Of a DNA stretch of 64,000 bases, positions 36,001 to 64,000 are shown in pieces; position 1 is the first letter of the stretch; each line of letters opens with the position of its first letter. The DNA comes from Perna viridis (lineage: Eukaryota), in NCBI GenBank assembly GCA_037379345.1, contig CM074514.1, positions 16,988,001 through 17,052,000 of the forward strand, written 5' to 3'. Position numbers: made by a program.

Positions 36001-39000
36001 GTCCTACCTGTAATTCCAGGTGGGCACTGACAGGTGAAATAACGACCATTGTCTACAGGTATACAGGTACCACCATTACAGACATTCCCAGAACAGATAG
36101 CAGGATCTGTAACAATGCAAAAGAAAAAATTAATCACTCTAAATTCATTGACCAATACAGAGTTTCAGTTTCCAACAAACAATCTCTATTTATCACAGAT
36201 GTTGTACCTCTTACCCAAAACTTTAACTTCAATAAGTAGGGCAGTGGCTGTCTTTCAATGAACAGGAAGCTTTACTCTAACAACAAACTCAAGTTCACCT
36301 CTAATCTAAAGTTGGGTTTGTGCTGTTTGTTTTTGTGTGTACTTGTTTGTAACTTGTTTTTTTCTCTGTTTTTCTTCCTTATGTTTTAATAACGTCTATG
36401 CTATACCATTGATTTATGATCCAGTCAAAAGTAATTTACATGTTTTTCATATTAACAGACATAAAATAGAATCTTATCATGAACTTGGCAGTGAAAGTAA
36501 TCTTACCAACACACTGGCTCAATGAGGTACTTCCATTTGATGTTGTTACCAAACCACGTGGACATTCTATACAATGCTGGGACTGTGTTTTGTTGGAGTA
36601 AAACATTACAGGACAAGGTTTACAGGGAACCAGTCCACTGCTACTATATTCTCCAATAGGACATACATCTATAGAATTGAAAAAAAGACATTTGTATAAT
36701 TCACATAATATGTTTTCAATAAAACTATCGGAAATGTAGAACAATATTAAAGATTTACTTTCCAAATGACCACTCAGCATGGAAATATAGGTTCAGATTT
36801 TAAATTGAAAGTTAAAATTATTAAGTTTTATGTGGCATGCAAATATCATAGCATTCAGTGAAAAGCCAGTTAATGATTAACATGCCTCTAGAAGTCAGAA
36901 GAATATGCAACATTTTCGTATATTGTATCATACATAAAGACAAAAGAAGTCGTATGTTTAAAAAGCTTACCTAGACATCCATTCTGACTGTTAGTTCCTG
37001 TACTCAGGGTAAACTGTCCAGTTGGACACGATTTACAGATGGTAGATTTATAGGAGTCAGAGTAAGAATTGTTTGAACATTTAGTACAGGGCTGCAGTCC
37101 TGTTGGGGAGTATTCCCCTGGTTTACATGTACCTGAAGCAAATATTATAATTGATAATACTACTGGTAATGAAAACACTCCTAATTATTACATAGATTCT
37201 CTTTAATTGATTTATAAACAATTTATTTTTTTTTTAATCTGTAACAATGCTTGAAATTCTGGGGAAAATAACATCATTTGTTATTTCTAGTGAAAGTTCT
37301 GTAGGCAGCAGCGTCATGTCAAAATGACTTGTCTTCAAAGAGGGAATGATTTCACAATAATACCAGACAAGTTTTACCATTATACATACCAATACAGTTA
37401 GTGTTATCTCCAGTACAGAGTTGACATTCAGACTGTGTACTGTCTGGAGCTAAGGGACACACTTCACATCTACCTGCCATACTGTTAACATAGGTACCTT
37501 TTCTACAATAACCTGTAACATCAAACAATTAAACAATGTAAAAGGCTAAGTCTTCAGACAAAAGAACATATACTGATAGTAAATATACTTTTTAAAAGCA
37601 CTGGAGATTTCTTTCTAAATAAAGTATAAATATAACCGTCACAAGACATCATAAGCTACAGAAAGATTTTTACTGATACAGATATATACCTATAACAGTA
37701 ATAAGTCACTTACTACAGAATTTGCTTGTTTGATTTAGCACCATATAATGACCTTCACATAGGAATTTTGGAGTTGGTTCATCATTCAATAGTGTTAATA
37801 TATACTCAGGACATGTTGCCACGGTGATAGTTAGGTTACCAAGTTCTTTAATCTTGGTTATAGCTGTTCTTCCACATTTTTCCATTTTACCAAAATCCAA
37901 TGTTCCAAAGTTGGCAAAAATCACCGAAGTTTCAATTGTCAACTTTTCCTGAAAAAGGAAAATTATTAATCCATTTATTTATTGGGGACACCCTGTAAAA
38001 ATTTTGTTTAATTATCCTGGTTTAATATCCTTCTATTGTTATGAACACTTGATATTTTTGTCTGCACAAAGCACCAATTTCCATGTACTCTGACTCCACT
38101 ACAATATTGATTGTTTTTATTTACATTATTATGTATATATGTTAGCTATTTGAAAGCATTCAAGCTTATTTTACACTTTTGAGCACTTAAAACCATATAA
38201 TTGTCTTTCATAATCAGAGTACATTTTTTTTTTTAAATTGACATTTCATTCACATGTTATAGATAAGCAAGTGTTTCTACATCTTACATATATTTTTATG
38301 AAACTATTTTGCTTGCTCAACACTTAAAATATAATTCTTGTAATTTTGTATTCCAAGCTGTAGTTAACTTACTGGTGTATCCTGTACAGTATCTGGCATC
38401 AGATTAAAGCTGTTATTACAGTCAGGTATAAGCTGTTCAAGGGCATGAATTTTTTCTATTATTTTTCTCCCATACTGCCTGGAACAGTTATCACTGAATT
38501 CCAAGGTAGGTGTATTGTAGTTCACTTTTATCCTATATTGTGGAAGCTGCTCATTTCCTAAAAAAGACAATGCATTTTCTTTATAAAGACGTGAGGTAGC
38601 AACATGAATTTCACATGAAGCTCAATTCATGTTAATTTCATGTGAACAGTACTTGTCTGTGTAAATGATGCAATCTCCTGAAGTGACACACCACAATTCA
38701 ATGCCAGAAAAAAAGACTGTTATTAGTTTGCGGCAAAGTGTAGTATATAGATATCCTTGTGTCTACATGTTAACCATTGTTAAAACATTCAATGAAAAAA
38801 ATGTTCTGTTTTTGAATATTCAAATGCCTATAAGTCATGATCACCTGTTCCATGGACAAAAGAAGCAATGATTTTCATATTGGTATAATAGTGAGTATGA
38901 AGACTAGGAAAAAAATCACTTACTTGTGGCCTCATATGTAAACTGACAAGATGTTGTATTCCCAAATCTATCATGAGCTATAGCCATCACATTTACAAGG

Positions 39001-63000: not shown

Positions 63001-64000
63001 TCTGTGTAAACCAGACTCTGGAAAGACAGGTAATCTGTGTAAACCAGACTCTGGAAAGAACAGGTAATCTATCTGTGTAAACCAGACCCAGGAAAGAACA
63101 CGTAATCTGTGTAAACCAGACCCAAGAAAGACAGGTAATCTGTGTAAACCAGACCCAGGAAAGAACAGGTAATCTGTGTAAACCAGACCCAGGAAAGAAC
63201 AGGTAATCTGTGTAAACCAGACCCTGGAAAGACAGGTAATCTGTGTAAACCAGACTCTGGAAAGAACAGGTAATCTGTGTAAACCAGATCCTGGAAAGAA
63301 CAGGTAATCTGTGTAAACCAGACCCTGGAATGAACATGTGATCTGTGTAAACCAGACCCAGGAAAGAACAGGTAATCTGTGTAAACCAGACCCAGGAAAG
63401 AACAGGTAATCTGTGTAAACCACACCTCTTTTAAATTTCATGCCTTAACCAAAGTTCTCTCAGTCCAAAAAAAAACGGATTCAGTTTAGACATGTTTTAC
63501 TGTATATAAAACAAACCAAATAAGAAATTTTGACTAATCAAAAAGCTATAATTCAAGGAAAGCCCCACACATGATATTCTTGTAACCTTGAACTTTGCTC
63601 TATGACCCTGGAAATCTCGAAGTTCTACATGTATAAATCAATACTGAATACATATGTACCAATTTTGGTCAAAGTCTGTTAATGGATGCTGACTTTTCAT
63701 GTACCAGATCAAAAGATTAATGACCTCATCATAACAACATGTATATCCACAAAGGTTGTACTTACATGCGAATGGCTGGGTTTAGGAGTAATATTGATTG
63801 CTGGGCCATTAAGTATGGAGCATTTGTTTTGAGCAATCTGTGTAAAGATCTCTACAGTTTCATTGACAAAGAGTTCAACACATGTCTTGTTGTATACAAC
63901 TGGTAGGGAAAACATCATCTTATAGTGTAAAATATAGCTTGGTTTTGTGGTGGCTGTCTGAGGTTGTTGTATCACACATTTCATTGGAGTTACATCTGTA

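What the first reader, a model, noticed from the sequence alone, without database searches (positions are those of the whole stretch)
37714..63995. Unnamed ~150-aa six-cysteine module repeated at least 6 times (SEA/ferredoxin-like?)
Seen: exon pairs 63766/62324, 58966/57766, 57132/53483(5' part), 53483(3' part)/51880, 49177/48428 and 38373/37714 each encode: alternating hydrophobic strand, Cys-led amphipathic helix, Cys, strand, [phase-0 intron], strand, Cys-led helix, Cys, then aromatic-x-C-(9-13)-C (e.g. WSCNQGY, WQCPDGY, WACNEHY, YNCSTGY). A divergent seventh copy with RRRKRS lies at 24811-25636. Inference: the beta-alpha-beta-beta-alpha-beta order fits a disulfide-stapled SEA-like fold. 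It may be the poorly annotated unit that precedes ephrin-receptor-like repeats in SVEP1/uninflatable-type proteins, here expanded in tandem between mucin stalks.
Basis: partly seen in the sequence, partly recalled or inferred. Interest (0 to 1): 0.7.

Follow-up and report, generated by a model that had tools for sequence, protein, structure and literature searches.

The report
Repeated six-cysteine module in membrane mucin
A giant mucin-like membrane protein gene of an animal-type genome carries at least six strongly diverged copies of a two-exon, cysteine-stapled module that matches no catalogued protein family, but its fold could not be settled here.

Summary
The observation largely holds. 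On the minus strand, six exon pairs (one junction is fused into a single exon) encode a 136-173 aa module. Each has 2 Cys in the first half and 4 in the second; module 1 has 6. Sequence similarity is weak. Only B1-B3 are clearly homologous (BLASTP 1e-9; leave-one-out HMM E~1e-3). The other copies are tied in by weak transitive links, cysteine spacing and gene structure. The "seventh copy" (24811-25636) is not supported: it shows no similarity, a different cysteine count, and a phase-2 intron at another position. No Pfam family matches any of the 13 module exons. PDB sequence profiles give only weak CCP hairpin hits. A scan of 1.84 billion proteins found one true relative, a 146-aa fragment at 40% identity with all 5 overlapping Cys conserved. 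The SEA/ferredoxin-like fold is neither shown nor excluded: both AlphaFold models were low-confidence (pLDDT 43 and 55), although they gave the strand-helix-strand order. Exons were not joined, so no whole-module test was run. It is probably a lineage-restricted module family of moderate interest.

The parts
63766..63999 (-). Module 1, first half (A1). The exon runs off the window end and its donor at 63766 is phase 0.
   Evidence: Open frame to the window end. GTAAGT follows 63766. 2 Cys, 19 residues apart.
62324..62591 (-). Module 1, second half (B1). It ends in WSCNQGY...C and carries 6 Cys, two more than the other copies.
   Evidence: Phase-0 acceptor at 62591 and phase-1 donor at 62324. 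The leave-one-out HMM places it as top hit, E 0.0014.
59980..62001 (-). Ser/Thr-rich stalk exon between modules 1 and 2 (context).
   Evidence: 673 aa, 40% S+T, phase 1 at both ends.
58966..59171 (-). Module 2, first half (A2). An alternative acceptor lies at 59183.
   Evidence: Phase-1 acceptors and a phase-0 donor. BLASTP against A3 gives 0.005.
57766..58102 (-). Module 2, second half (B2, 57875-58102) plus a 36-aa Thr-rich linker (57766-57874).
   Evidence: The acceptor ttttcag|att was read directly. BLASTP against B3 gives 1e-9. The linker is 56% S+T.
57132..57343 (-). Module 3, first half (A3).
   Evidence: Phase-1 acceptor and phase-0 donor. 2 Cys, 28 residues apart.
53483..54019 (-). 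Single exon holding B3 (53786-54019), a 14-aa Thr/Pro linker (53744-53785) and A4 (53483-53743). The inter-module intron is missing here.
   Evidence: Phase 0 at both ends. Its only true database relative is P0002, at 40-41% identity with all 5 overlapping Cys conserved.
51880..52138 (-). Module 4, second half (B4), ending in YNCSTGY...C.
   Evidence: Phase-0 acceptor and phase-1 donor. 4 Cys with gaps 29/17/11. z = 4.1 against B1.
49177..49388 (-). Module 5, first half (A5).
   Evidence: Phase-1 acceptor and phase-0 donor. z = 3.5 against A3.
48428..48680 (-). Module 5, second half (B5).
   Evidence: Phase-0 acceptor and phase-1 donor. 4 Cys with gaps 26/17/12. z = 3.5 against B6.
44830..47945 (-). 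Thr-rich stalk exon with 30-nt (10-aa) periodic repeats (context).
   Evidence: 1037 aa, 43% S+T. TRF arrays of period 30/60/90.
38373..38557 (-). Module 6, first half (A6), directly after the HYR-like exon 38924-39148.
   Evidence: Phase-1 acceptor and phase-0 donor. 2 Cys, 21 residues apart. The sequence link to the other A halves is weak (best z 1.6).
37714..37948 (-). Module 6, second half (B6), directly before two Ephrin_rec_like exons (36971-37132 and 36507-36668).
   Evidence: Phase-0 acceptor and phase-1 donor. 4 Cys with gaps 20/17/13. Ephrin_rec_like E 3.3e-9 and 2.2e-13.
24811..25636 (-). It is not supported as a member. The likely exons are 25387-25636 and 24811-24977, and RRRKRS lies at 25431-25448.
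   Evidence: No similarity. 4+3 Cys. The only phase-compatible splice pair is phase 2 and sits at a different position. No Pfam hit.

Best explanation
Each A+B exon pair encodes one extracellular globular module of about 140-170 aa. The module is a symmetrical phase 1-0-1 exon cassette that has been duplicated in tandem and has then diverged to 10-29% identity. It belongs to one very large minus-strand gene for a type I membrane protein. In that gene the modules alternate with heavily Ser/Thr-rich (mucin-type) stalks, and one copy sits between the HYR-like and ephrin-receptor-like repeats of an SVEP1/uninflatable-like core.

Each half is read as strand(s), then Cys, an amphipathic helix, Cys, and a strand. 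The second half adds a short disulfide-closed tail, aromatic-x-C-x2-[GH]-Y-x(6-8)-C. The even cysteine count of every exon and the constant spacing suggest three local disulfides (C1-C2, C3-C4, C5-C6). This pairing is inferred, not shown.

The most likely role is structural. The modules would be folded, disulfide-locked, N-glycosylated nodes that interrupt the extended O-glycosylated rods, as SEA or CysD domains do in vertebrate mucins, and they may offer binding surfaces. A two-layer alpha/beta (ferredoxin/SEA-like) packing of the two halves is the leading guess for the fold. I put it at about one in three, and it is not established.

Shown: the exons, phases, cysteine pattern, partial homology among copies, conservation in one relative, and the absence of a catalogued family at exon level. 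Inferred: that the two halves form one domain, the disulfide pairing, the fold and the role.
For: Gene structure: there are 12 of 12 GT donors, the mid intron is phase 0 in 6 of 6, and the flanking introns are phase 1 and compatible with the neighbouring stalk, HYR-like and Ephrin_rec_like exons.

Coding: the frames stay open for 60-200 codons where the stop probability is 0.073 per codon, so P(60 or more open codons) is about 0.011. The relative P0002 keeps all 5 Cys and W61 at 41% identity.

Homology among copies: B2-B3 1e-9 and A2-A3 0.005. B1-B3 are recovered by leave-one-out HMMs. Seven of 30 same-half pairs have z>=3.5, against 0 of 36 cross-half pairs.

Cysteine spacing is constant.

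Secondary structure: both AlphaFold runs give the same order of elements for B3. Helical periodicity is stronger in 10 of 12 inter-Cys segments.

No known family: 0 of 13 module exons reach any Pfam cut-off, and no family recurs among the members at E<=10.

Context: the stalks are 40-43% S+T, and Ephrin_rec_like, EGF and Laminin_G_3 exons and a hydrophobic anchor lie downstream.
Against: B4, B5, B6 and all A halves are not recovered by leave-one-out HMMs (4 of 7 B and 7 of 7 A fail as top hit). Their membership therefore rests on weak pairwise links, cysteine spacing and intron phases.

A loose cysteine pattern alone is not rare (11 of 586 ORFs against 6.2 expected).

Both structure models are low-confidence (mean pLDDT 43.4 and 54.6; 0 and 2 residues at 70 or more). 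Foldseek found nothing significant.

Strand-type periodicity of the flanking segments is not seen (6 of 12 and 5 of 12).

That A and B form one domain was never tested on a contiguous sequence, because the exons were not joined. No transcript evidence was available, so the exon joins are inferred from splice signals and phases.
Confidence: 0.6

Rival explanations
1. The module is a true but very divergent member of the SEA domain family (PF01390). It would be homologous to the SEA units of transmembrane mucins, here stapled by disulfides and without autoproteolysis.
For: The module sits between O-glycosylated stalks. The predicted strand-helix-strand order is repeated twice. A cluster named SEA domain-containing protein appeared at rank 5, score 0.76, in the language-model look-alike search. 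By the tool's own statement that is at noise level and only a lead.
Against: There is no SEA hit for any of the 13 module exons at E<=1, nor for 13 members at E<=10. No SEA chain is among the 26+2 PDB profile hits at E<=10. No G/SVVV-like motif occurs at the half-junction in 6 of 6 copies (sequences). Both predicted halves have two strands before the helix rather than one. All these tests were made on half-modules, which lowers sensitivity.
Confidence: 0.15
2. The real repeat unit is the half, about 60-85 aa of strand, Cys, helix, Cys and strand. On this view A and B are old duplicates of one unit, and the gene holds twelve or more such units, half of which have gained the C-terminal Cys hairpin.
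For: When A and B halves were aligned together, MAFFT stacked the A halves on the B halves, with the first Cys invariant and the second nearly so. Both halves have a Cys pair 19-30 residues apart around a segment with helical periodicity. AlphaFold gives both halves the same element order.
Against: The profile-profile comparison of A and B halves is not significant (probability 0.4%, E 0.15). Mean z for A versus B is 0.17, and 0 of 36 pairs reach 3.5. The cassette that is phase-symmetrical (1-1) is the pair, not the half.
Confidence: 0.2
3. The C-terminal third of the module, from the fourth Cys on, derives from a fragment of a known cysteine-rich domain. The candidates are the N-terminal strand-strand-helix of SRCR, or the C-x2-G-Y hairpin of CCP/EGF. 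The module would then be a mosaic rather than a new family.
For: In the scan of 1.84 billion proteins the only other hit was an SRCR-repeat protein, P0003 (E 1.8e-4, 6 stretches). BLASTP aligns the last 33 residues of B3 without gaps to the first 33 of several of its SRCR repeats, with three Cys aligned (E 3e-4 for the single comparison). The B-half profile gives weak hits to CCP modules, confined to profile positions 53-77 (best E 0.019).
Against: An HMM of the nine SRCR N-terminal segments finds only the B3 exon among 586 window ORFs, and weakly (E 0.036, 9.3 bits). With the full-repeat HMM the B2 ORF scores E 0.52 and the B5, B1, B6 and B4 ORFs score E 5.7 or worse. Pfam SRCR, Sushi and EGF models hit none of the 6 B halves at E<=10. 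The rest of an SRCR or CCP domain is absent, since a Thr-rich linker follows at once.
Confidence: 0.1
4. There is no domain. The pattern would be a chance reading of cysteine-containing open frames or decayed pseudo-exons.
For: Most copies are below the level at which sequence searches recognise them. The loose Cys regex is not rare. There is no transcript evidence.
Against: There are twelve long open frames in a stop-rich sequence. Splice signals are canonical and phases are mutually compatible throughout. B2-B3 gives 1e-9. Every exon of copies 1-6 has an even Cys count at constant spacing. A relative at 41% identity keeps every overlapping Cys.
Confidence: 0.03

Closest known systems
SEA domain (Pfam PF01390), in particular the tandem SEA-containing repeats of MUC16 and the SEA units of MUC1/3/12/13/17. 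These examples are recalled, not fetched.
   Same: It is a folded unit of roughly 110-150 aa set between or next to O-glycosylated stalks of a membrane-anchored mucin-like protein. The predicted alternation of strands and two helices is compatible with a two-layer alpha/beta unit.
   Different: There is no sequence match at exon level and no G/SVVV autoproteolysis motif at the junction. The module has six conserved cysteines and an added Cys-closed tail, and each half is predicted with two strands before its helix. The fold was not established.
CysD domains of gel-forming mucins (recalled).
   Same: They are cysteine-containing globular units that interrupt long mucin stalks.
   Different: CysD is recalled as about 110 aa with 10 Cys. 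Here there are 6 Cys in a different arrangement, and no Pfam model matched. CysD sequences were not compared directly.
SRCR N-terminal segment, and the C-x2-G-[YF] hairpin of CCP/EGF modules.
   Same: In B3 the last 33 residues align without gaps with the start of SRCR repeats, including three Cys. The last 25 profile positions of the B half resemble the Y-x-C-x2-G-Y...C stretch of CCP modules.
   Different: The SRCR resemblance is clear only in B3. The CCP hits are weak (E>=0.019). The remainder of those domains is absent, and Pfam SRCR, Sushi and EGF do not match.
SVEP1/Polydom and Drosophila Uninflatable (gene-level comparison).
   Same: It is a mosaic of HYR-like, ephrin-receptor-like, EGF and pentraxin/LamG-like units. 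Like Uif it has a single membrane anchor, and Uif is described with a presumed extracellular cleavage site (passages of PMC12867482). Here RRRKRS lies at 25431-25448.
   Different: The domain lists read for Polydom (vWFA, Eph-like, HYR, STT2R, EGF, PTX, CCP; figure legend in PMC10281526) and for Uif (18 EGF, CLECT, 3 CUB, 8 CCP, 2 FA58C, 3 HYR; discussion of PMC3340373) name no unit like this one and no mucin stalks. In the window no vWA, CUB, CLECT or FA58C unit and no CCP array was detected. Orthology was not tested.

Membership tests
SEA domain (PF01390) | Significant match to the family profile | tested here: not met
   0 of 13 module exons hit SEA at E<=1, and 0 of 13 aligned members at E<=10. 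The test was made exon by exon only, so each query was half a module.
SEA domain (PF01390) | Similarity to solved SEA structures | tested here: inconclusive
   No SEA chain is among the PDB sequence-profile hits. Foldseek on two low-confidence partial models gave 0 of 448 and 0 of 433 matches at E<=0.001. No whole-module model was made.
SEA domain (PF01390) | G/S-V-V-V type autoproteolysis motif between the second and third strand. This feature is present in many members, not all, and is recalled. | tested here: not met
   The six half-junction sequences read (for example ...KPSHSH/ISMYK and ...VTPER/LELTA) contain no such motif.
SEA domain (PF01390) | Position next to O-glycosylated stalks of membrane or matrix proteins | tested here: met
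   The stalk exons have 40-43% S+T and the linkers 50-56% S+T. A hydrophobic anchor exon lies at 21104-21319.
SRCR domain (PF00530) | Full domain of about 100-110 aa with 6-8 Cys and a match to the profile | tested here: not met
   There is no Pfam SRCR hit in the 6 B halves at E<=10. Only the last 33 aa of B3 resemble the SRCR start. With an HMM of the nine SRCR N-terminal segments only the B3 ORF is found, weakly. With the full-repeat HMM the B2 ORF scores E 0.52 and the other four B ORFs E 5.7 or worse.
Sushi/CCP (PF00084) | Four Cys with a conserved Trp in about 60 aa, and a match to the profile | tested here: not met
   The PDB profile hits to CCP chains are weak (best E 0.019) and limited to positions 53-77 of the B profile. 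There is no Pfam Sushi hit.
SVEP1/uninflatable-type mosaic protein (the gene, not the module) | Co-occurrence of HYR, ephrin-receptor-like, EGF and pentraxin/LamG units | tested here: met
   Four Ephrin_rec_like exons score above the cut-off (36.8, 50.2, 46.7 and 23.8 bits against 23.1). EGF and EGF_CA score above their cut-offs. HYR (20.3 against 21.7 bits) and Laminin_G_3 (27.4 against 27.6) fall just below their cut-offs on single exons.
SVEP1/uninflatable-type mosaic protein (the gene, not the module) | The same unannotated unit lies before the ephrin-receptor-like repeats in SVEP1 or Uif | not testable with these tools
   No SVEP1 or Uif sequence could be fetched. Searches with B6 and with the adjacent ephrin-like exon found no relatives. 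The papers read name no such unit.

The most novel reading that the evidence does not exclude
The module founds a previously undescribed family of animal extracellular domains. Under this reading it is a six-cysteine alpha/beta unit built from two similar strand-helix-strand halves plus a Cys-closed tail. It would be unrelated by descent to SEA, restricted to one invertebrate lineage and evolving fast. It would serve as the folded node of a new kind of membrane mucin grafted onto an SVEP1/uninflatable-like adhesion core.
Probability: 0.3. Interest if true: 0.55.

Novelty: new variant of a known kind. Interest (0 to 1): 0.4.

Why it matters
Globular units inside mucin stalks (SEA, CysD) determine how membrane mucins are cleaved, shed and loaded mechanically. 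An unrelated or very remote module doing the same job in another animal lineage would show that this architecture arose more than once. It would also add a domain to the catalogue used to annotate invertebrate surface proteins. The phase 1-0-1 cassette with one fused junction is a clear example of module expansion by tandem exon duplication. The practical value is modest: the family looks narrow, and neither fold nor function is settled.

Tried and rejected
Two-chain co-folding. A3 and B3 were sent as two separate chains to complex prediction. The verdict was no answer, with score 0.01 against a mark of 0.34. The tool did not use the alignments, and the partner's own fold was uncertain. This counts neither for nor against.

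Foldseek. Searches against the PDB with the two low-confidence models gave 0 of 448 and 0 of 433 matches at E<=0.001. The top rows (LptD, DUF26, GyrA, kinases) are meaningless.

Language-model look-alike searches. For exon 3b4a all scores were 0.80 or lower, with a rotavirus VP7 cluster above the SEA cluster. For B6 there was no usable hit.

Word-index protein searches, limited to proteins of 2000 aa or less. Exon 3b4a gave none of 628 candidates, B6 gave none of 58, and the ephrin-like exon returned only the window's own ORF, P0004.

Combined profile. I tried to build a B-linker-A profile by aligning all halves to the fused exon. MAFFT stacked the A halves on the B halves, so the alignment was not used as a search profile.

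Other tests that gave nothing. The profile-profile comparison of A and B halves was not significant. The cysteine regex did not discriminate. The SRCR lead from P0003 proved clear only for B3. Rfam gave no match in the window.

Calls that could not be made. The listing of cluster members for P0002 was not possible because the database was switched off.

Literature. Searches for 'SVEP1' + 'SEA domain' (1 unrelated review), 'SEA-like' + 'ferredoxin-like' + 'mucin' + 'furin' (0) and 'SEA domain' + 'mucin' + 'mollusc' + 'disulfide' (0) found no description of such a module. These three searches are the only basis for saying that I found nothing in print.
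Full report
**Setting**

The window has no N and is AT-rich, with GC 0.31-0.37. Stop-to-stop frames show one very large gene on the minus strand. It runs from beyond 64000 down to about 20500.

Read 5' to 3', the gene contains:
- modules and Ser/Thr-rich stalks (64000-44800);
- a weak Ly6/uPAR-like piece;
- two HYR-like units, of which only 38916-39197 has a Pfam hit (E 7e-4, just under the cut-off);
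- module 6;
- two Ephrin_rec_like exons (E 3.3e-9 and 2.2e-13);
- an EGF array;
- Laminin_G_3/pentraxin-like exons;
- two more Ephrin_rec_like units, the second sharing its exon with a calcium-binding EGF;
- a hydrophobic anchor exon (21104-21319) and a tail.

**The exons**

Acceptors with polypyrimidine tracts lie where expected.

The model, given high to low on the minus strand, is:

| Module | First half (A) | Second half (B) |
|---|---|---|
| 1 | 63999 (open) to 63766 | 62591-62324 |
| 2 | 59171-58966 | 58102-57766 |
| 3 | 57343-57132 | in exon 54019-53483 |
| 4 | in exon 54019-53483 | 52138-51880 |
| 5 | 49388-49177 | 48680-48428 |
| 6 | 38557-38373 | 37948-37714 |

B3, a short linker and A4 share the single exon 54019-53483.

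The mid-module intron is phase 0 in 6 of 6 copies. Every outer boundary that can be read is phase 1. So are the boundaries of the stalk, HYR-like and Ephrin_rec_like exons, so the chain of exons is phase-compatible throughout. The module is therefore a classical symmetrical 1-1 cassette with an internal phase-0 intron.

With a stop probability of 0.073 per codon, an open frame of 60 codons has a probability of about 0.011.

**The pattern**

- A1-A6 each have exactly two Cys, 19-30 residues apart.
- B2-B6 have exactly four Cys with gaps of 20-29, 15-17 and 11-13. B1 has two more.
- An aromatic residue lies two positions before the fifth Cys in 6 of 6 copies, and x2-[GH]-Y follows that Cys in 5 of 6.
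- Module lengths (A+B) are 136-173 aa.
- The stalk exons are 673 and 1037 aa with 40% and 43% Ser+Thr. The short linkers after B2 and B3 have 56% and 50%.

**Is it more than chance?**

By sequence the answer is only partly yes. B2 and B3 align over their full length at BLASTP 1e-9, and A2 and A3 at 0.005.

Leave-one-out HMMs were searched against all 586 window ORFs of 40 aa or more. They recover B1, B2 and B3 as top hits (E 0.0014, 0.00097 and 0.00032). B4, B5, B6 and B7 are not recovered, and no A half is the top hit; A2 came second at E 0.1.

Shuffle z-scores link B1-B2 (5.5), B1-B3 (6.6), B2-B3 (15.2), B1-B4 (4.1), B5-B6 (3.5), A2-A3 (3.7) and A3-A5 (3.5). That is 7 of 30 same-half pairs among copies 1-6, against 0 of 36 A-versus-B pairs. 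The mean z is 2.6 within B, 1.1 within A and 0.17 across.

A loose cysteine regex is not specific. It matches 11 of 586 ORFs, six of them the B exons, against 6.2 expected after shuffling.

I accept six copies on the combination of these weak links, the constant cysteine spacing and the identical cassette structure.

**The seventh copy**

I do not accept it, for three reasons:
- Its halves have no similarity to the others (best same-half z 1.0 and 1.5).
- Its cysteine counts are 4 and 3.
- The only phase-compatible splice pair is phase 2 (25387/24977), placed after the strand that follows RRRKRS rather than before it.

It is a separate juxtamembrane region with a furin-type motif at 25431-25448.

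**Known families**

No A+B protein was made, so no whole-module Pfam, AlphaFold or Foldseek test exists in this report.

At exon level none of the 13 module frames reaches a Pfam cut-off. Three have unrelated sub-threshold hits: DUF3439 in the Thr-rich linker, CBM_56, and a PaaX domain. Scanning each aligned half at E<=10 shows no family shared by two members.

Profiles of the B and A halves against all PDB sequences give 26 and 2 hits at E<=10. The best are CCP proteins at E 0.019-0.2, confined to the last 25 profile positions. None is an SEA domain.

**Relatives**

An exhaustive HMMER scan of 1,835,955,588 representative proteins with the fused exon (179 aa) found 2 proteins at E<=0.001.

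P0002 is a 146-aa ORF-like fragment covering the B3 tail, the linker and A4. It is 40-41% identical, and C47, C63, C76, C123, C154 and W61 are all conserved. This argues for selection on the fold.

P0003 is an SRCR-repeat protein (E 1.8e-4, spread over six stretches). The last 33 residues of B3 align without gaps to the start of its repeats, with three Cys in register. An HMM of its nine SRCR N-terminal segments finds only the B3 ORF, and weakly (E 0.036). With the full-repeat HMM the B2 ORF scores E 0.52 and the other four B ORFs score E 5.7 or worse. I treat this as a local resemblance.

The three word-index searches found nothing beyond the window's own ORF, and they covered only proteins of up to 2000 aa.

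**Fold**

AlphaFold2 was run on the fused exon with P0002 as the only other alignment row. Mean pLDDT was 43.4 and no residue reached 70. The elements were B3: E7-10, E16-21, H24-34, E46-54, E61-69, E73-80; and A4: E96-101, E104-110, H120-135, E139-143, E171-177.

AlphaFold2 on B3 with its five paralogues gave mean pLDDT 54.6 and the same order of elements.

In the models, however, each half has two strands before the helix.

Helical hydrophobic periodicity is stronger than strand periodicity in 10 of 12 inter-Cys segments. The flanks show no consistent strand periodicity.

These results fit a two-layer alpha/beta unit but do not establish one. Foldseek on both models was empty at E<=0.001.

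**Halves**

MAFFT stacks the A halves on the B halves with the cysteines in register. The profile-profile comparison is not significant and the cross-half z-scores are at zero. An ancient internal duplication is possible but not shown.

**Comparison with SVEP1 and Uninflatable**

For Polydom/SVEP1 I read an introduction passage of PMC13722417 and a figure legend of PMC10281526. They list vWFA, Eph-like, HYR, STT2R, EGF, PTX and CCP units.

For Uif I read a discussion passage of PMC3340373. It lists 18 EGF, CLECT, 3 CUB, 8 CCP, 2 FA58C and 3 HYR units. Passages of PMC12867482 describe Uif as an apical single-pass membrane protein with a presumed cleavage site.

None of these names a unit like this one.

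**Verdict**

This is a real module repeated at least six times. It is fast-diverging, matches no catalogued family at exon level and has one detectable relative. It most likely acts as a folded, disulfide-locked node between mucin stalks. The SEA-like fold is a reasonable guess that remains untested.

Noticed in passing
window 25431-25448 (-), within 25387-25636: A furin-type motif, RRRKRS, lies in an unassigned juxtamembrane region. The region sits between a CCP-looking exon (26012-26311, no Pfam hit) and the last ephrin-receptor-like units. Drosophila Uif is described with a presumed extracellular cleavage site (PMC12867482, passages).
   Followed up: partly
window 53483-54019 (-): The intron between modules 3 and 4 is missing. 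The second half of module 3, a 14-aa Thr/Pro linker and the first half of module 4 form one exon. Modules 2 and 3 are also the most similar pair (BLASTP 1e-9).
   Followed up: yes
window 53786-53884 (-), last 33 residues of B3: There is a gapless resemblance to the first 33 residues of SRCR repeats, with three cysteines in register. It is clear only in this copy.
   Followed up: yes
window 44830-44900 and 44142-44420 (-): The end of the long stalk exon (…SCYVCSKGKDDPSCNVQTRQCNQ) and the next frame look like a Ly6/uPAR three-finger unit. Pfam UPAR_LY6_2 reaches only E 0.031.
   Followed up: partly
window 42322-42558 (-): An exon-like frame between the Ly6-like piece and the first HYR-like unit carries two dibasic motifs, RRRRS and RQKRS. 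It has a phase-1 acceptor and donor and no family match.
   Followed up: no
window 3500-3960 (-), 8000-8400 (-), 43180-43600 (+): A dispersed repeat of about 430 bp occurs in three copies with 85% mean column identity. One copy lies inside an intron of the gene. There is no Rfam match in the window.
   Followed up: partly
window 62801-63426, 53195-53368, 33120-33514: There are intronic minisatellites: 34 bp x 18.5 between A1 and B1, and 35 bp x 5 just downstream of the fused exon. A repeat run around 33120-33514 gives long spurious open frames.
   Followed up: partly
window 301-951 and 5776-5994 (-): A second gene lies downstream on the same strand. It has a PDZ-looking exon (…GDIILSINGRD…) and a Gln/Pro-rich exon. 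It was not searched.
   Followed up: no
window 44834-47869 (+): Long open frames of up to 385 aa, rich in Val/Ser/Gly, lie on the strand opposite the Thr-rich stalk exon. They are a by-product of the 30-nt repeat, not a sign of a second gene.
   Followed up: no
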